Shown piece by piece: positions 55,213 through 64,000 of a stretch of 64,000 nucleotides of DNA. Position 1 is the first letter of the stretch. Every line of letters begins with the position of its first letter. The stretch is taken from positions 3,169 through 67,168 of the forward strand of contig CAMVPC010000016.1 in the NCBI GenBank assembly GCA_947169265.1, in the 5' to 3' direction. The notes below the pieces were generated by a model. That model was not told the origin of the DNA, ran no database searches, and saw only the letters and a program-made list of their open reading frames with translations. The position numbers and the translations under genes were made by a program. This DNA is from an uncultured Prevotellaceae bacterium (GTDB lineage Bacteria > Bacteroidota > Bacteroidia > Bacteroidales > Muribaculaceae).

Positions 55213-55668
55213 TCATATATTTTTTTCAAGTTTATTGCGATATTCATTTTTATAGGGATACAAACTACTCTGTTCGGTCACTCCGACGAACAGAATCCTG
55301 TCTGCCATTTCACATACATATTTGTTCCTAGCCATTGCAGTCATCTTTGACTGGCGGATGGCAGTACTAACGGAGATTATCAATAGACGGTTCTGAGCCA
55401 ATGGCTCTTTTAGTTCGTCAGGAATAACCTTATACATCTTTCGTGCAAGCACAATGATAATGGGCTGACTGCCCTTCAGCAGGAAGTGAAGCACGTCTTG
55501 CTCCAACTTGCTACTGAAGCCGCTGATTACACACGCCCCACGATTGCGCATTTCTGTTGCCCAATCATACACTTGCAGCACTGTTTCCGAAGAAATGGTG
55601 CTCGATGCCAAGAATGCTGTCTTCCTCAGCTTCAGCAGTTCCTGATTGCCAAGATACTCTACCGTCAT
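55213..55668 (-). CDS. Stand-alone short DprA/Smf-like (SLOG superfamily) protein
   Basis: YLGN.ELLK..KTAFLAS, VISGFSSKLEQDV, IIIVLA, and AMARNKYVCEMAD; Rossmannoid SLOG core without the DprA SAM or wHTH domains. Confidence 0.7.
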   Translation of the reverse strand: MTVEYLGNQELLKLRKTAFLASSTISSETVLQVYDWATEMRNRGACVISGFSSKLEQDVLHFLLKGSQPIIIVLARKMYKVIPDELKEPLAQNRLLIISVSTAIRQSKMTAMARNKYVCEMADRILFVGVTEQSSLYPYKNEYRNKLEKNI

Positions 55669-55678
55669 AGTCCCTCAA

Positions 55679-57145
55679 TTACGTCTCTGCATTGTCTTCA
55701 ATAATTTCCCAGTGACCACTATAACCACTGCCGACATATTTGATATGAGCGAGTTTATTGATATGCCTCTTTATTGTTTTAGACGTAAAACCGCTTAATG
55801 TCGCTAATTCTTCTGTAGTAACTTTAGGATTTTTCCTAATCTGTTCTTCTATCCATATATCAAGTGCATCACCTTGAGTGCCACCTTGAGTGCCACCTTG
55901 AGTGCCACCTTGGGTATCACCTTGAGGGACATCTTGAGGGACATCTTGAGGGACATCCACAGTTGAAAGCACAGTTACTTCAAATGCAGTCAACTTTGAC
56001 ACATCGAAAACAGCCTCCTTGTTGCCATTTTCAAGCAGCATATCCTGCACACGTCTTATACCTTGGTTGAACATATTGACATACTTCATCTCTTTCATGG
56101 CTTCCGCTATAATAGGATTGCGATAGTCGTTTACATTGGGAAAATTCTCAGGACGTGCCTCACCATATAACCCTCCGGCGTTCATAATTTCGATATGGTC
56201 GTCAAACTGATATAGCCGGATTGGCATATTCGATTGATAGTCACGATGCATACAGGCATTCATCATCAACTCACGCAATGCGTTGTTGGGATAATTGATA
56301 ACGGTCTTCTCACGGAACAGACTCACAGCGACGGGTCTTTGTGTGATAATGGCATCACTGACAAAGGATTCCAATGCGGGTAGCAACTGGAAAAGCGGGC
56401 CCTGAAAGCGTTTCTCGTTCAACACCTCACCGCCAATAGTCTTGCCTGCAAAGCGTACAAACTGAACGTATGCCCCTGGCAGATAATACCGCGGATTTTT
56501 GCCAAACAAGATGATGGCTGCGTATGTAGGGCAACCATGAATGCGGTCATACAGACGGACTGAAGCCAACTGCTCCTGGATGTCCCGTTTGTCATCAGCC
56601 AAGACCTCTGGGGTCACTACAGAAGGTAGATACTCCTTCTTAATATACTCCAGATTCAAGTCATCCAATGTCGCACCAAGACAAGGTGTAGCATCAAAAG
56701 TTGCCATATATGCCATGCGTCGTTCCGTTAATATCCGTTCTTCCGCTTCACTGGCTATGTCACGTCTGGGACCGATACGCACGAACACCCTTCCACGATA
56801 CCGCACAGGAGGCAGCAGCGAAGGGGAAACCTCTGCTACCAGCAAATCACCATCAGGAAATTCCACCCGCTCTACCGTCATCACAGGTAATGGTAGGATG
56901 TTACCATCCGAGCGGATGCCAGAAATCTTTTTCAGCAGAGCATCGTCCACCTTCAGTCCCGACAGCCGTCCGTCATCATAGGCACCTATCAGCAGATAAC
57001 CCTTTTGCCGAGAGTCTGGCAAATCATTGGAGAAGGCACAAATGGCTTCACAGAATTTGTCCATGTTCGTCGTGGATACCGTTCGCTCTACCCGAAAATT
57101 CTCCGTGCTGTGCAGCAATGCCTGTACTTCTTCTTTTGATATCAT
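55679..57145 (-). CDS. Schlafen/AlbA_2 domain, RecG-C-like ATP-binding domain and C-terminal winged HTH
   Basis: ENFRVERT, EAICAFSN, LLIGAYDDG (AlbA_2); ALRELMMNACMHRDY, NAGGLYG, YRNPIIAE; HTH TTEELATLSG..KTIKRHI..L..VGS..SGHW. Confidence 0.85.
   Translation of the reverse strand: MISKEEVQALLHSTENFRVERTVSTTNMDKFCEAICAFSNDLPDSRQKGYLLIGAYDDGRLSGLKVDDALLKKISGIRSDGNILPLPVMTVERVEFPDGDLLVAEVSPSLLPPVRYRGRVFVRIGPRRDIASEAEERILTERRMAYMATFDATPCLGATLDDLNLEYIKKEYLPSVVTPEVLADDKRDIQEQLASVRLYDRIHGCPTYAAIILFGKNPRYYLPGAYVQFVRFAGKTIGGEVLNEKRFQGPLFQLLPALESFVSDAIITQRPVAVSLFREKTVINYPNNALRELMMNACMHRDYQSNMPIRLYQFDDHIEIMNAGGLYGEARPENFPNVNDYRNPIIAEAMKEMKYVNMFNQGIRRVQDMLLENGNKEAVFDVSKLTAFEVTVLSTVDVPQDVPQDVPQGDTQGGTQGGTQGGTQGDALDIWIEEQIRKNPKVTTEELATLSGFTSKTIKRHINKLAHIKYVGSGYSGHWEIIEDNAET
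55871..55954. repeat. Seven 12-bp tandem repeats encoding a DVPQ/GGTQ linker
   Basis: (accttgagtgcc)x3, accttgggtatc, accttgagggac, (atcttgagggac)x2. Confidence 0.95.
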
Positions 57146-57204: not shown

Positions 57205-60200
57205 TTAATTTATATTCCGCGTATTTATCTGATAGTATTTATCTTCTTCCTTATATGTAGATATAAATTTCCGATTAAGCAAATATAATATTAATTCTCT
57301 ATTATAGTGCCCTTTATTTATCTTAGGACGTAAACCTTTCTGCATCGCAATTTCTGCATATTCTGCTCCCATCGTGCTTAGAGCCTCTTTAATAAATGCA
57401 TCATTAATATCTTGATGTTCAACATAATGCATAAATGCTTTAACTTTCAGTTCTATATTATTCGATGCAGATATATAGTTGATAAAAACATCTTTCTTTT
57501 CTTTTAATCTATCCAAATGCCCATTGACAAAAAATAGGCAAATGGAGTTCGCCAAAGAAGTCGATATATTAAAATCAACTGGCAATGAATAAACCACCTG
57601 AACTTTTTCCTCCTTTTTTAAAGATGACGATTTTACTAATCCTTCTGCGATATCAGATGATAAGGGATATAAACTAATATCTTTGAGGTAATCTGTTTTA
57701 TTATTGATGATAAAAGTAATTGTCAGTTGAGGATACTTTTCACATATAAATTTGTAATAGTATTCATTAAACTTGATACCGCTTGTATCTATTAGATATG
57801 ACATTCTATTACTCTCAAGTCCTGTTAAATCGTATGCGGTAAATATTCTATCAAAACTGTCCCTAAATTTCTTGTATGAAGAATAATTTAATACATTTGT
57901 TCCAACAAAATATGTAAACATTTTGCTCTTTATTGCTTCTGACAATACAGATGTTGCTTTTACAGAACATAATTCGTCTATATTCTTTTCTATATAATCA
58001 ACAAGTTCATCCCTTTTTATATTATCGTCTTCTTCATTGACAAAATCTTCAATATTCTCCCATCTGGGCTTCAAAATATTTGTCGCTATTGACATGATTT
58101 TCCTCTCGTTGTCTAAAATGTCAGACAAGTTATTTATCTTATTGACTTGCTTTCTTAAGTATTCTTTGGTCTTGTCACTAACTTGACATGTGTTTACAAT
58201 ACACAACAAATTCTCCTCTGTTTCTTCTACACTTGAATCGGGAAAGCACCGGATGTATTCATCCATATTATTATCCATGTCATCCATAACATCAGTATTT
58301 CCAATTCCTCTAATCGTAGTCATGCTTGCCATGCGATAAGATGCGATTTTATCTGGTGCCAAAAAAGATACGATACTTAATAGATTGTCTCTGCGACGTT
58401 CAAAAAAGCATCCATCAATTACATATGACATAAAATCTGGAGAAAGTGAATTAGCGTTTAGGTTATAGAATCTTAGATTCCTTTTTTGAGTAACATTCAT
58501 GATCCTCTTAAGTCCAATAATTCCAATACGTTCATTAAGCCAACCAAAATTATCGCACATATGGATATCAAAATCATCATTTTCTTTTCCAATGACATCA
58601 AAATTAACATATCTCAAAAACATCTCAAAGAAAATGTCAAAGCGACTTCTATCTCTTTCTTTTCCTTCATATAGACATTCTACATCAAAACGCGTCCATT
58701 TCGCAAATATTCTTTCGAACAACACAGAACAATCGGCATGTGCCTTATAAAAAGCAAGCACAAATTCTTTTTCTCTTTTGCTTACGATGTACTTTATTAT
58801 TTTATCCAGTTTTGAAGATATGTCTATATTGTCTACATGATCAGACATGTATTTCACTAATGAAACATTTAATACTCCGCCATTATTATATGATTTAGCA
58901 GGTATCTCTTCTATTACAGACTCAAATTTGCATAGTTGATATGTATATTCTTTTTTGTTTCCAATTCTTAGGTCTGCAATGAAGTCTTTATCTTCTGGCA
59001 TTAGGGTTCCTGGATAGAAATAGGAAATATAATCGTAATAAAATTCATTTATATACCCTTCTTTCAATAAGAATTCAACAAGTTTTGTTTTGTCATCTAA
59101 CTTGCTAATGTCAACATGAAAAGATTCTACTTTGGGAATTCGAATCAGTTCTGAAATACTCATCTGCTGATATTTAGATATCGCCATTTCTAACTGCTCT
59201 ATTTCTTTCCTTTTTTGAGCAATTACTTCTGATTCGAAGTTCAATCTTTGTGTATAACTATATTCAGAATCAACAGCCTTTTCAACGTCGCTAAATTTGA
59301 TATCTAAAGTTTCTGTTGATAAGTTGTTATAGTAGTAGTAATACTCGTATTGATTAAACTCATCATTAATCAGTTTCGTGAATTTGTTTTCATCATCAAT
59401 GAGTTCCTTCGGGAGCATTTTTTCTCCTTTTTTTGTAATGAATCTATAGATTCTTGGTTTTTTCTTCAAATACTCCATTACGTATAATGACCTCAAATCT
59501 TTCCCGTTGTCAATTCTGTTTTTCACAATTATCTCGTTTAGTTGTGTTTTAAGTTCTGCTATTTTCTTTTGGCTTGATTCTGTAATCTCATCTATGTATT
59601 TATGTTTGCTTGAGATAATTGTATACACAACCCCTTTACGATTATGTAAGTCTGCAAAATCCTTGGGAAAATAATTTTTATAAACAATCATTCCTAAGAG
59701 ATTCTTTGATGAAATCTTTTCGCCTATTTTGGACCGATATTGCAAATACTCATCAACTATATTATACAATATTCTCATGTCATCAATATAAAATCCAAGT
59801 TCCTTACAAGTTGTCTCAGTTATTTCATTAACTCCCTTTTCTTGTAATGCAGATATCAGTTTGTCACAAGCGTTAGAAGAATTTACGACAGGTATAACTG
59901 TCGTTATATAATCAAAGAATTTAGTGCGATTTGTGTCATGGAAGATATCATCCCTAACTGCATATATAAAAACTATACGTCTACCAATAGAAGTAGAGGC
60001 ATTCAGTAATTGGTTTATCTCTCTCAACTTTAGAAAGATATGATTTGTATCAAATCTATCCAGATCTTCTATAATAACAACATTGTATTTTGTGACCTCA
60101 AAGAAATAAATTATCTCATCCAAATGTTTGTTAAATATGGATGTGTTTTCTTTAATATCAATCTCTCCATTCTTGAAATTCAGTTTGTTGATTTTAGAGT

Positions 60201-60972
60201 TATATGTTGAAACAATAATATAACTAAGGATATAGATGGATATGATTATTAGATATAACATACATATTACATCCCATATTTGTTTCCATCTTTTACTGCA
60301 CGAGAATACTTCACATAAAGAATCTACCATTATAAAATTTGGCATAAATAAGACAATTGCTGCAATTACAGCAACTATCAGTGAGGTCGAAATTGGCAAG
60401 GCCTTCTTCCATTTTATGTCCTGTATTCTTTTTAGTCTTGATTGTCTGAGTTTATGAGCCTTTTCTTTATATATGATTTGTTGAAGTATGCTATATTCTA
60501 TCAGATGATTAATTGCATCCTTGTCTATTGTTTTTTGATTGTTGTTCGCTTTTGGTTTCATAGCGGGAACCATCTGCTTATTTGCTTCTTCATTTGTAGT
60601 TTTATCTTTTTCTACAAGTTCTTTATAAAGCGTGTCATCTTCCAAAGTGGCCAAAGAGATGCATAGATAGTTCGCTTTACGATAATCGCGCATTAGGGTT
60701 TGGAGAACAGAACTTTTCCCTGCTCCATATGGCCCTGTCAGTGCTATATTTTTGACATTTCTATTTCCAAGCTTATTGGCAATATCTTTTACTGGTCCAT
60801 ATTTAGGATTGTCATTCCCATTCTCGTCTTTAACCTCTATAAAAGCGGGTGCTAAATCAAAATGACTATTGTCATCTTTAAAATATCGAAGCAAAGGATC
60901 TTCATGTATAGACTTGATTCTGTCCACACATTGATTAAATCGTATAACAAAGGACTTAATGCTAAATTTCAT
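57205..60972 (-). CDS. YobI/KAP-family P-loop NTPase with two TM helices and a long C-terminal region
   Basis: Walker A GPYGAGKSS, two TMs (approx. residues 190-260), Walker B VVIIEDLDRF, FIYAVRDDIF, and RTKFFDYITTVIPVVN. Confidence 0.85.
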   Translation of the reverse strand: MKFSIKSFVIRFNQCVDRIKSIHEDPLLRYFKDDNSHFDLAPAFIEVKDENGNDNPKYGPVKDIANKLGNRNVKNIALTGPYGAGKSSVLQTLMRDYRKANYLCISLATLEDDTLYKELVEKDKTTNEEANKQMVPAMKPKANNNQKTIDKDAINHLIEYSILQQIIYKEKAHKLRQSRLKRIQDIKWKKALPISTSLIVAVIAAIVLFMPNFIMVDSLCEVFSCSKRWKQIWDVICMLYLIIISIYILSYIIVSTYNSKINKLNFKNGEIDIKENTSIFNKHLDEIIYFFEVTKYNVVIIEDLDRFDTNHIFLKLREINQLLNASTSIGRRIVFIYAVRDDIFHDTNRTKFFDYITTVIPVVNSSNACDKLISALQEKGVNEITETTCKELGFYIDDMRILYNIVDEYLQYRSKIGEKISSKNLLGMIVYKNYFPKDFADLHNRKGVVYTIISSKHKYIDEITESSQKKIAELKTQLNEIIVKNRIDNGKDLRSLYVMEYLKKKPRIYRFITKKGEKMLPKELIDDENKFTKLINDEFNQYEYYYYYNNLSTETLDIKFSDVEKAVDSEYSYTQRLNFESEVIAQKRKEIEQLEMAISKYQQMSISELIRIPKVESFHVDISKLDDKTKLVEFLLKEGYINEFYYDYISYFYPGTLMPEDKDFIADLRIGNKKEYTYQLCKFESVIEEIPAKSYNNGGVLNVSLVKYMSDHVDNIDISSKLDKIIKYIVSKREKEFVLAFYKAHADCSVLFERIFAKWTRFDVECLYEGKERDRSRFDIFFEMFLRYVNFDVIGKENDDFDIHMCDNFGWLNERIGIIGLKRIMNVTQKRNLRFYNLNANSLSPDFMSYVIDGCFFERRRDNLLSIVSFLAPDKIASYRMASMTTIRGIGNTDVMDDMDNNMDEYIRCFPDSSVEETEENLLCIVNTCQVSDKTKEYLRKQVNKINNLSDILDNERKIMSIATNILKPRWENIEDFVNEEDDNIKRDELVDYIEKNIDELCSVKATSVLSEAIKSKMFTYFVGTNVLNYSSYKKFRDSFDRIFTAYDLTGLESNRMSYLIDTSGIKFNEYYYKFICEKYPQLTITFIINNKTDYLKDISLYPLSSDIAEGLVKSSSLKKEEKVQVVYSLPVDFNISTSLANSICLFFVNGHLDRLKEKKDVFINYISASNNIELKVKAFMHYVEHQDINDAFIKEALSTMGAEYAEIAMQKGLRPKINKGHYNRELILYLLNRKFISTYKEEDKYYQINTRNIN

Positions 60973-61092
60973 TTCTTTTTTCTTTTATAATAAACATCTC
61001 TTTTGGAGTTACCTACTAAATGTATCGTAGTTACCCACTAACTCATAAGAGTTAAGCAGTTACTTGAAATGTAATCATCTATCTTTTGCTCG

Positions 61093-61917
61093 TCACTCAT
61101 AATCACATTCAATATCTAAATAAACATTCTCTTTCAAATACAAAGCCAATTCTTTGTGTGGTTTTATTATTTTGTTGAAAGTTTCTTGCGCTATATTTGC
61201 AATCCAATTCTCTGAACCTTCTGGAGGTGTTTGCCCCAAGTCTAAATAATCCACATAATTCGAAGCCATACAATACTGTGGGTTAAGATATAAGCATGAC
61301 GCAAAGTGGAAAAGGAACAAATCATTTATACAGGTATCTAATAAGTTCAGATATCTTGTTCTATATTGATTATGTATTTCATTGTCATTAGTTATCATCC
61401 ACTGGTAACTATTTATATGCATATTATCATCTAATATATCCCTGATTCTTCGATACCTTTTCTCAAAATCGAAAAAACAGAATAGAGACTTATATGATTC
61501 TGAACGCTCAAAATATTTTATCACGTCACCATACTTGGGCATTTTGAAGTTCTCTTCTATCCATTTTTTTACACGTTCTGCAGTTAGCAAGAATACTTCA
61601 GGATTTTTTCTTTTTTGTTCTTGCCGATATACCGTAAAATATATATCCAGAAGTATCTCGTCAAAGTACTTCCTTACGATAGCAAAAGCGTCATTAATAT
61701 GTGCTTTATTCAATAACAAGCATACAGAATCTATCGTTCCCTTTATTGAACTAAAAATATAAGTGTCGATATTGGGAAAAGTTCCAGGAAGTCCTTCAGG
61801 CAAGAAGTTAAAAGAACTATATGATAGGAAATCATAGAAATCTTTTATAGAATCCAAGTTCTTAAAGATTATATGTTCCCTATATTCTTTAGGCAATTGT
61901 TCTATGTCCCATTTCAT
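61093..61917 (-). CDS. Hypothetical all-alpha protein, possibly HEPN-like
   Basis: NDAFAIVRKYFD and YRRIRDILDDNMH; helical; the R..H spacing is one residue longer than the canonical Rx4-6H. Confidence 0.55.
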   Translation of the reverse strand: MKWDIEQLPKEYREHIIFKNLDSIKDFYDFLSYSSFNFLPEGLPGTFPNIDTYIFSSIKGTIDSVCLLLNKAHINDAFAIVRKYFDEILLDIYFTVYRQEQKRKNPEVFLLTAERVKKWIEENFKMPKYGDVIKYFERSESYKSLFCFFDFEKRYRRIRDILDDNMHINSYQWMITNDNEIHNQYRTRYLNLLDTCINDLFLFHFASCLYLNPQYCMASNYVDYLDLGQTPPEGSENWIANIAQETFNKIIKPHKELALYLKENVYLDIECDYE

Positions 61918-61949: not shown

Positions 61950-63734
61950 TTAATTTGTTTTATATACTGATACACAATGACATTTACATTGTGCATATGT
62001 ATTTGGAGAAGAATTCTGTGAAGATATCCAACTAAAGCATTTGGGGCAAAATGTCTTTTCATATAATTTTTGAACATTATATGCAAACTCTCTGATTTCT
62101 TGATCGCTCAACGCAATTGCCCATTCATTATAGTGACATGCTAAGAGATTCCTGATATATAAAGAATTATGAATTGCCTCAATAAGTGGTTCCAAATCTT
62201 TTGATTTTTTTAGTTGTTTTCTTATTCCTGGCCATAAATCACCAATAGTATATTTGTCATCTCGAACTCTCTTAATATCTATTCTTAATTCTATACTCAA
62301 ATTTTGACAAATCTTTTCTAACATCAGTCCTGACATTGATGCCATTAAAGTTGTATTTCCCGATTTAATTGCAATTTCTAAAGAGTCATCATACATCTTG
62401 GCTAATTGTGACATAATGATAGGCCCTTGATCAAAACTCCAACTCGCTATTTGAAATTCTTTAAATTCATGATTATTATTAGTGAACAAATATCGCAATT
62501 GATTTAGCCATAGTCTATCGTGGGCGGTAATAAATATTTGCCAATCCTTTAATTCTGAAAGAATGTAATTAACAAATTTTGCCCGTATTTGTGTGTCAAC
62601 ACTTTGGAGAACATCATCTAGTATAAAAACCTTTGCCTGTCCTCTGTTAGCACCAACCCTAATAATAGATACATATAGCAGCAATATTAGCAAATCATAA
62701 TTCGCTTCACTGAAAATTGAACTTGGCGTAACTGTTAGACCATTTTTTAATTTTATTAATATTTCTAACGAAGTATCTGTTTTTTTCCCAAAAGACAATT
62801 GTATATAATCAATATAGTCAACAGAGGAAGTTGATTTAAATGCTTCTGTCAAGTATGAACTCGCTTCTGTTAAAAACTCCATATTCTGCTTTAATCTCTT
62901 ATTGGATTTTACAGATGATGTATCAGTTAGTTTCGTAATCTGCCCCTTTATCATCTTAATCTCCAAAAGTTTCTCAACCAATGCATTTGATATTCTTGCA
63001 ATTTCGTCATATTCTTCTTGAGAAACCAATTTACGCCCTTGGGTTCTTTGCCGTGGATTGCCATTTTGTAAAACGACACTCCTTTTTATGCAAAGATCTA
63101 TCGCTTCTTTATCATTTATAGAAAACCGATGTGGATTCACTCCAATTTTTTCTCCCAATATTTTTTTTAACTCGTCTCTACGCCTTTTAATACTTATGCA
63201 TTCTTCTTGAAGATCTTCTATTTCCGGATCTATTTCTAATAATACCTCTGAATCATTTTCGTCATTATCTGGTACTTGATAAATAAACTTGAAAAACAAG
63301 ATTTGACGTTCTATCCCTGACAAAATATTATAAGTCATAATGTCATTTCGCCTTAAAGCTACAGGAACATACGAGAAATTCTCATTGCTTTCCTTGTCAG
63401 TCGCTTTGTAAATAACTTTATCATTCTTTACAAAAATATCTATACCTCTTTCTATAATACAACCGTTATCTAACTCAACCTTAGTCTTTGCAGGAATAGA
63501 CTGGGTATAACATTTCGAAATAGCAGAAGGTCTACGGCTATTTTTTATTTTTGAATCACGTTCTATACGTGCTTGCAAATTAAACTCAATAGCATCAACT
63601 ATAGACGATTTCCCTGTACCATTGTCACCATAAATTATAGTAGAAACAGCATCTCCATTTCTATTTGAGAAATCCAATTCTACACTTTTAGGGATTCCTC
63701 GAAAGGCTTCAATATATAATTTTTTGATTTTCAT
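61950..63734 (-). CDS. ABC/SMC-type ATPase fused to a C-terminal HEPN domain and Zn finger (PrrC/RloC-like)
   Basis: FRGIP, Walker A GDNGTGKSS, central coiled coil, signature FSEAN, Walker B FILDDVLQSVD, switch ITAHD, HEPN RNLLACH, and CPKC...CKC. Confidence 0.8.
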   Translation of the reverse strand: MKIKKLYIEAFRGIPKSVELDFSNRNGDAVSTIIYGDNGTGKSSIVDAIEFNLQARIERDSKIKNSRRPSAISKCYTQSIPAKTKVELDNGCIIERGIDIFVKNDKVIYKATDKESNENFSYVPVALRRNDIMTYNILSGIERQILFFKFIYQVPDNDENDSEVLLEIDPEIEDLQEECISIKRRRDELKKILGEKIGVNPHRFSINDKEAIDLCIKRSVVLQNGNPRQRTQGRKLVSQEEYDEIARISNALVEKLLEIKMIKGQITKLTDTSSVKSNKRLKQNMEFLTEASSYLTEAFKSTSSVDYIDYIQLSFGKKTDTSLEILIKLKNGLTVTPSSIFSEANYDLLILLLYVSIIRVGANRGQAKVFILDDVLQSVDTQIRAKFVNYILSELKDWQIFITAHDRLWLNQLRYLFTNNNHEFKEFQIASWSFDQGPIIMSQLAKMYDDSLEIAIKSGNTTLMASMSGLMLEKICQNLSIELRIDIKRVRDDKYTIGDLWPGIRKQLKKSKDLEPLIEAIHNSLYIRNLLACHYNEWAIALSDQEIREFAYNVQKLYEKTFCPKCFSWISSQNSSPNTYAQCKCHCVSVYKTN

Positions 63735-63750
63735 AAATATAAAATCTTAG

Positions 63751-63851
63751 TTATTCTTCGTTTAATTCATCACCCATACGATATTTGATGTCGTAGTTCT
63801 TCGCAAGCGAAGCGGCAGAGCTGAGCGGATGATGAAATCTAATTCTTCTTC
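63751..63851 (-). pseudogene. Relic C-terminal tail of an R-M (type IIG/Eco57I-like) methyltransferase gene, interrupted by a 29-bp insertion
   Basis: Reads EEELDFII (63851-63828), then a 29-bp insert (63827-63799), then NYDIKYRMGDELNEE* (63798-63751). No long upstream ORF in frame within the window. Confidence 0.6.
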
Positions 63852-64000
63852 GGCGTAATCATATTGAACAGGGGAACGATTCTCTTTTGTATTAAACACA
63901 GATGTTAAACTAATAAATGTTCTGTTACGTCAATTTCATGCATTTGAGGTCTGGACAAGGACCATTTAACACGTTTGTCTTTACCTATAGTAAAAACAAT

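What the first reader, a model, noticed from the sequence alone, without database searches (positions are those of the whole stretch)
63751..63851. R-M methyltransferase tail relic split by a 29-bp hairpin insert at the head of the island
Seen: the minus strand encodes EEELDFII, then cgctcagctctgccgcttcgcttgcgaag (29 bp, frameshifting, containing the hairpin cttcg-cttg-cgaag), then NYDIKYRMGDELNEE*. The upstream frame closes 25 codons earlier, so no parent gene is present. Recalled knowledge: EEELDFIINYDIKYRMG is a conserved C-terminal motif of Eco57I-like/type IIG R-M proteins. Inference: this short conserved sequence may be a recombination or integration site through which defence cassettes or alternative specificity domains are added behind an R-M gene. 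The insert may be a mobile mini-element or a recoding/pausing signal at a fixed position.
Basis: partly seen in the sequence, partly recalled or inferred. Interest (0 to 1): 0.65.

Follow-up and report, generated by a model that had tools for sequence, protein, structure and literature searches.

The report
Methylase-gene stump carrying a mini-repeat
This is the leftover last 28 codons of a restriction-type DNA methylase gene, kept as the joint where defence genes are swapped in a rumen bacterium's defence island. It is interrupted by one copy of a 29-base hairpin repeat that is scattered through related Prevotella genomes, so it is instructive but not a new kind of system.

Summary
On the minus strand, 63866-63751 reads QYDYAEEELDFII, then a 29-bp insert (63827-63799), then NYDIKYRMGDELNEE*. 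Sister contigs that are 98% identical carry the intact parent: an 1100-aa Eco57I/MmeI-type methylase, paired with a PLD-SNF2 helicase, that ends with this tail 17 bp before the same ATPase gene.

In the window, GmrSD has replaced helicase and methylase. A third allele has GmrSD, an uninterrupted relic and different downstream genes (SIR2, DUF4062). Homology breaks 2 nt after the relic's stop codon and resumes 15 nt before the AlbA_2 gene.

Among Prevotella alleles the last 30 codons are 93-100% identical in DNA, although the preceding ~330 codons are unrelated. The tail is therefore a homology arm for swapping specificity domains and cargo.

The insert is real: it is present in three assemblies and absent from the other two alleles, with no target duplication. 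It belongs to a two-hairpin repeat family with about 40 distinct contexts, 18-34 model matches in three Prevotella genomes and one in this genome. The same 29-mer sits at the same codon in a second relic in another genome. How it moves is unknown.

It is not a recoding signal, and the locus is not the island's head.

The parts
63828..63866 (-). 5' half of the methyltransferase tail relic (QYDYAEEELDFII). The last 26 nt are 25/26 identical to the intact alleles. The first ~13 nt are diverged.
63799..63827 (-). 29-bp insert CGCTCAGCTCTGCCGCTTCGCTTGCGAAG. It is a copy of a two-hairpin REP-like repeat family (consensus CGCTCGGCTCTGCCG + CTTCG-CTTG-CGAAG). This copy has a G>A change that breaks one pair of hairpin 1. 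There is no target duplication.
63751..63798 (-). 3' half of the relic (NYDIKYRMGDELNEE + TAA). Homology with the allele that carries different cargo ends 2 nt after this stop codon.
63905..64000 (-). 3' end of an 818-aa GmrSD type IV restriction gene. It continues beyond the window (contig C16 67073-69529) and occupies the place of the helicase and methyltransferase genes.
61950..63734 (-). 594-aa SMC/Rad50-like ATPase, the first gene of the cargo block. In sister contigs it starts 17 bp after the intact methyltransferase stop codon.
57205..61917 (-). Rest of the cargo block: a 274-aa protein with no family match (61093-61917) and a 1255-aa YobI/Tmn-type P-loop NTPase (57205-60972).
55213..57145 (-). 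Right-hand conserved anchor: an AlbA_2/HATPase_c_4 gene (55679-57145) and a DprA-like gene (55213-55668). Homology between alleles with different cargo resumes 15 nt before the AlbA_2 start codon.

Best explanation
The stretch is a dead stump: the last ~28 codons of an Eco57I/MmeI-type (type IIG-like) DNA methyltransferase gene.

In the ancestral layout, still present in sister strains, the locus reads HTH regulator, PLD-SNF2 helicase, methyltransferase, cargo defence genes, AlbA_2 ATPase, DprA-like gene. Here the helicase and the body of the methyltransferase were replaced by a GmrSD type IV restriction gene, and only the tail survived.

The tail survives and recurs because it is the one piece of these genes that stays near-identical in DNA between alleles. 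It is the 3' homology arm that lets homologous recombination swap the variable target-recognition domain upstream of it and the cargo genes downstream of it. Crossovers therefore pile up there, and homology between alleles ends right after its stop codon (inferred mechanism; the mosaic pattern is shown).

The 29-bp insert is a later, separate event. It is one copy of a short GC-rich two-hairpin repeat (REP-like) that occurs in rumen Prevotella-type genomes. It was inserted cleanly before AAC, without target duplication. It is most likely inherited together with the right half of the tail from an allele also seen in another genome. It has no function here; its first hairpin is already damaged. 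What moves the repeat is unknown.
For: Parent gene and alleles:
- Contigs carrying the identical ATPase protein have HTH, an 1125-aa PLD-SNF2 helicase and an 1100-aa Eco57I/MmeI_Mtase protein ending ...EEELDFIINYDIKYRMGDELNEE*. They are 98% identical to the window from the insert's right edge onward.
- The methylase hits PADLOC REase_MTase_IIG at E 8e-285.
- Contigs with the identical GmrSD show the uninterrupted relic followed by SIR2 and DUF4062.
- Homology to the window ends at TAACT and resumes 15 nt before AlbA_2.

Tail as a joint:
- A further relic of about 77 codons in Prevotella sp. khp7 precedes yet another cargo gene and the same AlbA_2/DprA-like pair.
- Between four Prevotella alleles, nucleotide identity is 79-96% in the methylase core, 26-65% over ~330 codons and 93-100% in the last 30 codons. 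Third-position identity in that last block is 80-100%.
- The same 68-aa HTH protein heads type I-like, type III and GmrSD cargo elsewhere.

Insert:
- It is identical in three independent assemblies and absent from the other two alleles.
- A 23-nt core matches 25 metagenome contigs in about 19 unrelated contexts with sharp 29-nt boundaries.
- The covariance model finds 34, 23, 18 and 5 matches in four other genomes against 1 significant match here.
- 99% of structure cells are paired, and one pair is seen as CG, UA and GC.
- The same 29-mer (1 mismatch) sits at the same codon in a second relic in a red-deer MAG.
Against: - The recombination is inferred from mosaic sequence patterns and was not observed.
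- How GmrSD first came to sit next to a tail needs at least one illegitimate event that I cannot reconstruct.
- The left 13 nt of the relic (QYDYA) match no allele in hand.
- For the insert, no mobilising enzyme is identified. Y1 transposase genes (PF01797) do not track copy number in five genomes. The apparent preference for hairpin loops is not significant (24% vs 16%, p=0.10).
- Whether the two same-codon insertions share one origin or are independent hits cannot be decided.
Confidence: 0.75

Rival explanations
1. The tail is a dedicated attachment site of an integron-like capture platform. A site-specific recombinase inserts defence cassettes right after the methyltransferase stop codon and duplicates the tail each time. 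The 29-mer marks or derives from the crossover point between II and NY.
For: - Cargo always starts within 1-2 nt of the tail's stop codon.
- In L033 two tail copies flank a 118-aa ORF.
- The 29-mer is at the same codon in two different relics.
- Elements with the same HTH carry two integrases and MobC.
Against: - The left ends of the relics differ (about 13, 19 and 77 codons), which suggests no fixed crossover.
- The only integrase-like ORF near this locus has just an Arm DNA-binding domain.
- The 29-mer occurs in about 40 contexts unrelated to methyltransferases.
- The sharp identity step at the last 30 codons is what plain homologous recombination produces.
Confidence: 0.1
2. The 29-mer was not transposed. 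It was copied in by a repair or replication template switch (microhomology C...AAC) from another copy of the repeat in a previous host, or it arrived by gene conversion from another tail that already carried it.
For: - The junctions share 1 nt (C or G) on the left and AAC on the right with nearly all other copies.
- There is no target duplication and no inverted ends.
- No transposase correlates with copy number.
- The same core appears as an optional module inside another palindromic repeat family, with filled and empty copies.
- The right half of the tail next to the insert is almost identical in the window and in L033.
Against: The 29-nt unit has strict boundaries and strong sequence conservation across about 40 unrelated sites and several genera. 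That is easier to explain by a sequence-specific enzyme.
Confidence: 0.3
3. The insert is kept because it is useful: a hairpin between GmrSD and the ATPase gene that stabilises or attenuates the transcript, as REP elements do in E. coli operons.
For: It lies in the 170-nt gap between the two genes, 64 nt before the ATPase start codon. Members of the family usually sit just after genes.
Against: - This copy has a G>A change that breaks hairpin 1, and it folds no better than shuffles (z +1.0).
- No terminator-like site is present.
- The allele without the insert has the same GmrSD gene.
Confidence: 0.08
4. The insert is an assembly artefact or a programmed frameshift/recoding signal of a live gene.
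For: The insert is 29 bp, so it shifts the frame. It also contains a hairpin.
Against: - An identical insert is present in three independent assemblies.
- There is no ORF upstream of the relic.
- None of the 120 homologues ends in the shifted frame.
- None of the 15 uninterrupted tails found in genomes carries an insert.
Confidence: 0.01

Closest known systems
Allelic exchange of target-recognition domains between conserved flanks in R-M genes (type I hsdS, type III mod, MmeI-family type IIG enzymes; from my own knowledge of work by Furuta, Kobayashi and colleagues and by Morgan and colleagues)
   Same: A hypervariable specificity region lies between a conserved methylase core and a short, DNA-level conserved 3' block. 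Alleles are mosaics with breakpoints at those blocks.
   Different: Here the same 3' block also serves as the joint for swapping whole unrelated defence genes on both sides. It persists as an orphan stump after the methylase itself is gone.
Insertion with long target duplication at R-M loci (Nobusato et al. 2000, Gene 259:99; recalled, not read here)
   Same: Direct repeats of about 100 bp, derived from the target gene's end, flank an inserted gene. L033 shows tail, a 118-aa ORF, then tail.
   Different: In the window only one copy remains, and the upstream gene has been replaced. The mechanism was not tested.
REP/BIME/REPIN elements of Proteobacteria and Rickettsia palindromic elements
   Same: A short GC-rich hairpin repeat, mostly just after genes, sometimes in arrays, occasionally inside coding sequence, with compensatory changes in the stem.
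   Different: - It has two adjacent mini-hairpins in 29 nt and no GTAG head.
- There is no RAYT or Y1 transposase link.
- Copy numbers are low (1-34 per genome).
- The insert is not in frame.
- No Rfam family matches.
IS200/IS605-derived palindrome-associated elements (PATEs)
   Same: Insertion without target duplication next to a fixed short sequence (here AAC). Hairpins at both ends.
   Different: The element is far shorter than any known PATE. Y1 transposase genes are absent from two of the three genomes with most copies.

Membership tests
Eco57I/MmeI-type (type IIG-like) methyltransferase, C-terminal tail | Conserved C-terminal motif HYGFTxEELDFIINYDIKYRMG a few residues before the stop codon | tested here: met
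   The joined relic matches from Q/Y onward. 101 of 120 homologues carry the motif 4-14 aa from the end. The parent proteins hit PF07669, PF20473 and PADLOC REase_MTase_IIG.
Functional methyltransferase gene | Open reading frame with a SAM-binding/NPPY catalytic domain | tested here: not met
   Only about 28 codons remain, split by a 29-bp frameshifting insert. The frame closes about 25-28 codons upstream. GmrSD lies upstream.
REP/REPIN | Short hairpin repeat present in many intergenic copies per genome | tested here: inconclusive
   The model gives 34, 23 and 18 matches at E<=1 in three Prevotella genomes (roughly 12-25 at stringent E-values) but 1 significant match in the window's genome. 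Only 1-6 matches occur in 29 of 251 family genomes.
REP/REPIN | Association with a RAYT (Y1 HUH transposase) | tested here: not met
   PF01797 is absent from G453, G455 and G456, which carry 5-23 model matches. It is present in the window's genome, which carries one. Only five genomes were compared.
MITE | Terminal inverted repeats and a target-site duplication | tested here: not met
   Comparison of filled and empty alleles shows ATCATC|29 nt|AACTAC with no duplicated base. The ends CGCTC... and ...CGAAG are not inverted repeats.
Programmed recoding signal (frameshift or bypass) | A long upstream ORF that needs the shift to reach a conserved downstream frame | tested here: not met
   There is no upstream ORF. 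The insert is absent from all intact genes examined.
Site-specific attachment site (att, attC-like) | Fixed crossover point and a cognate recombinase nearby | tested here: inconclusive
   The right end of the joint is constant (the stop codon), but the left ends of the relics vary. The nearest integrase-like ORF has only an Arm DNA-binding domain.

The most novel reading that the evidence does not exclude
The last ~30 codons of this widespread methyltransferase family are more than a passive homology patch. They would be the attachment site of a cross-phylum 'cargo bay' that captures defence genes one after another, duplicating the tail at each capture. The II^NY position, hit by the same 29-mer in two different relics, would be its preferred breakage point.
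Probability: 0.1. Interest if true: 0.75.

Novelty: new member of a known kind. Interest (0 to 1): 0.35.

Why it matters
- It gives a clean, allele-resolved example of how defence islands are rebuilt. Three haplotypes of one locus differ by whole cassettes whose borders fall within a few bases of a 90-bp gene stump. That stump is the DNA-conserved arm that also drives specificity-domain swapping in the parent methylase.
- Annotators should read such orphan 'EELDFIINYDIKYRMG' peptides as markers of cassette joints, not as genes.
- The 29-bp insert documents a short two-hairpin repeat family of rumen Prevotella-type bacteria that has no Rfam entry. A true filled/empty allele pair shows insertion without target duplication.
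- Near-consensus copies are missing from the other 132 species of this genus. That is compatible with the insert having been acquired while the island sat in another host, but this is only an inference.

Tried and rejected
- Copies in the window's genome: neither the relic nor the insert occurs elsewhere (blastn-short, tblastn, regex).
- Near-consensus insert in relatives: none in 400 genomes of the family at <=3 mismatches or in the 133 species of the genus at <=2 mismatches. The covariance model later found diverged single copies in 2 genus members, so 'absent from the genus' had to be softened.
- Rfam: no family matches the insert in ten loci that contain it.
- Y1/RAYT transposase as the mobiliser: no correlation with copy number.
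- Hairpin-loop targeting: two fold-based tests against random N^AAC sites were not significant. The 9-bp stem that the uninterrupted tail forms (z -3.75) depends on the GDELNEE variant and is not conserved across the family.
- Exact look-up of the 39-aa relic ORF as a called gene: not on record.
- A methyltransferase ending in the frameshifted tail (RSALPLRL...): none among 120 homologues.
- Literature search for Prevotella REP elements: nothing relevant.
- The BREX-related systems paper (PMC12839542) does not describe the PLD-SNF2/methylase/DprA-like layout.

Full report
**Observation.**
On the minus strand the window reads, from 63866 down to 63751: CAA TAT GAT TAC GCC GAA GAA GAA TTA GAT TTC ATC ATC (QYDYAEEELDFII), then the 29 bases CGCTCAGCTCTGCCGCTTCGCTTGCGAAG (63827-63799), then AAC TAC GAC ... 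GAA GAA TAA (NYDIKYRMGDELNEE*). The frame of the first half is open for only about 25-28 codons. Relic and insert are each single-copy in the 2.9-Mb draft genome.

**Surroundings.**
- The genome has 54.7% G+C. The locus lies in a ~31% G+C island.
- The window ends inside the island, so I fetched the rest of the contig.
- Read along the minus strand, the order is as follows:
  1. rpsO
  2. a 174-aa ORF with only an Arm DNA-binding domain (an apparently truncated integrase)
  3. a 68-aa HTH protein
  4. an 818-aa GmrSD type IV restriction enzyme, whose last codons are 63905-64000
  5. the relic
  6. a 594-aa SMC-like ATPase (61950-63734)
  7. a 274-aa protein
  8. a 1255-aa YobI/Tmn NTPase
  9. 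an AlbA_2/HATPase_c_4 protein
  10. a DprA-like protein
- The relic is therefore internal to the island. The gene beyond position 64000 is not an R-M methylase.

**The parent gene exists in sister strains.**
An exact-protein look-up of the ATPase returned 10 contigs.
- In two of them the ATPase is preceded by HTH, an 1125-aa PLD-SNF2 helicase and an 1100-aa protein with Eco57I and MmeI_Mtase domains. In seven shorter ones it is preceded by the 3' part of the same methyltransferase gene. The tenth (L024) carries the window's own arrangement.
- That protein hits PADLOC REase_MTase_IIG at E 8e-285. It ends ...KHYGFTEEELDFIINYDIKYRMGDELNEE*, 17 bp before the ATPase start codon.
- These contigs are 98% identical to the window from the first base after the insert for up to 7 kb. 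They have no insert.
- The family is large: more than 6000 homologues. 101 of the 120 best carry the motif 4-14 residues before the C-terminus.

**Three haplotypes, and the tail as the joint.**
- Look-up of the GmrSD protein found contigs of the same chromosomal locus (rpsO flank, 98% identity). In them GmrSD is followed by the same relic without the insert, and then by SIR2_2 and DUF4062 genes instead of the ATPase block.
- Homology with the window ends 2 nt after the relic's stop codon and resumes 15 nt before the AlbA_2 start codon.
- The haplotypes are:
  - A: helicase, methylase, ATPase block.
  - B (the window, plus L024 and L026): GmrSD, relic with insert, ATPase block.
  - C: GmrSD, relic, SIR2 block.
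- All three share only the HTH gene, the ~90-bp tail and the AlbA_2/DprA-like genes.
- Prevotella sp. khp7 has a relic of about 77 codons followed by yet another gene and the same AlbA_2/DprA-like pair.
- A red-deer MAG (L033) has a methylase gene ending in the tail, a 118-aa ORF, and then a second 22-codon tail.
- The identical HTH protein heads type III, type I-like and GmrSD cargo in other contigs, some with integrases and MobC.

**Why the tail?**
- A codon-aligned comparison of four Prevotella alleles shows three zones:
  - 79-96% nucleotide identity in the methylase core;
  - 26-65% over the next ~330 codons, the target-recognition region;
  - 93-100% in the last 30 codons, with 80-100% identity at third positions.
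- This is the signature of recombination between conserved flanks, as known for specificity domains of type I, type III and type IIG enzymes (established knowledge).
- The tail is thus the natural crossover site between otherwise unrelated islands. That explains both the constant right border (the stop codon) and the survival of orphan tails.
- I infer homologous recombination. A dedicated site-specific mechanism is not excluded. It is disfavoured by the variable left ends of the relics and by the lack of an intact recombinase nearby.

**The insert.**
- It is identical in three independent assemblies, so it is not an artefact. Comparison of filled and empty alleles shows a clean 29-nt insertion between ATC and AAC with no duplication.
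- A scan of metagenome contigs for its 23-nt core gave 25 contigs with about 19 unrelated flanks. These are mostly intergenic, next to housekeeping genes of high-GC rumen Bacteroidales. The boundaries are sharp and the sequence is almost always followed by AAC.
- It contains two adjacent mini-hairpins, CGGC-TCT-GCCG and CTTCG-CTTG-CGAAG.
- A covariance model built from 22 copies gives these results:
  - 34, 23, 18 and 5 matches in four other genomes, against one significant match in the window's genome;
  - scattered diverged copies in 29 of 251 genomes of the family.
- On 35 distinct copies, 99% of cells pair, and one stem position occurs as CG, UA and GC.
- Some copies form arrays with 8-mer repeats. 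Others sit as an optional core inside another palindromic repeat that also exists without it.
- No Rfam family matches.
- The window's copy carries a G>A change that breaks hairpin 1 and folds no better than shuffles.
- The same 29-mer (one mismatch) lies at the same codon in the second tail of L033. The adjacent right half of the tail is almost identical to the window's, while the left half differs. I favour one insertion spread by recombination in the tail over two independent hits, but I cannot decide between them.
- The mobilising agent is unknown. Y1 transposases do not track copy number, and a preference for hairpin loops is not significant.

**Earlier notes of this scan.**
Notes seen had already described tail relics between defence genes, routine specificity-cassette swapping and a cargo bay ahead of a DprA-like gene in this family. 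They had also described several REP-like repeat families in rumen Prevotella. I tested the first three here on independent data, and they hold for this locus.

**Verdict.**
This is a real and well-explained scar of cassette exchange carrying a stray mini-repeat. It is instructive for how defence islands are rebuilt, but it belongs to known kinds.

Noticed in passing
window 63751-63851 without the insert; allele C in L025 12480-12590: The uninterrupted tail of the GDELNEE variant folds into a 9+5-bp hairpin (TTCATCATC...GGTGATGAA; MFE -13.4, z -3.75). The 29-mer landed exactly at the foot of its 5' arm. The 3' arm is not conserved in other family members, so this may be incidental.
   Followed up: partly
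L047 2390-3900, L048, L059 (metagenome contigs): A second palindromic repeat family, ATGATCA-NN-AGAACCGACCCC-N-TGATC, occurs in both orientations several times per contig. Copies exist with and without the two-hairpin core at the same internal position.
   Followed up: partly
L078 (Prevotella sp. khp7, contig 5 around 334460-334600); L056 and L066: Tandem arrays of the 29-mer family. In L056/L066 the copies are separated by three AACYTTTC octamers (period 53). In khp7 the spacers are repeated ~35-nt units.
   Followed up: no
L071, L073-L075 (contigs with the identical 68-aa HTH): The same HTH protein sits directly upstream of a type III R-M pair, a type I-like M+S pair or GmrSD, downstream of MobC and two integrases. 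It looks like the fixed left anchor of the cargo region of an integrative mobilisable element.
   Followed up: partly
L031/L032, L036/L039/L042 (Poribacteria chromosomes): Up to three paralogous ~1100-1200-aa methyltransferase genes per genome share the exact 32-nt tail sequence, although their upstream protein sequences differ.
   Followed up: no
L038 6107- (Latescibacterota MAG): Here the methyltransferase reads through the usual end and gains about 40 extra residues after KYRMG.
   Followed up: no
L057 1605-1641 (-): A strong match to the abiF RNA motif (RF03085, 58.5 bits, E 1e-8) about 1 kb from a copy of the 29-mer and next to a 301-aa ORF.
   Followed up: no
contig C16 69600-70800, beyond the window end (L001 9920-10623): Next to rpsO lies a 174-aa ORF with only an Arm DNA-binding domain, plus fragments. 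It is probably a decayed integrase, so the island may no longer be mobile.
   Followed up: partly
window 63762-63899 (-): A 45-aa GTG-started ORF runs through the relic and the insert (…EEELDFIIRSALPLRLRRTTTSNIVWVMN). It is a by-product of the frameshift and should not be annotated as a gene.
   Followed up: yes
L070 992-1032 and 2444-2484 (IMG/VR contig): Two copies of the 29-mer family lie on a 9.9-kb contig classified as viral.
   Followed up: no
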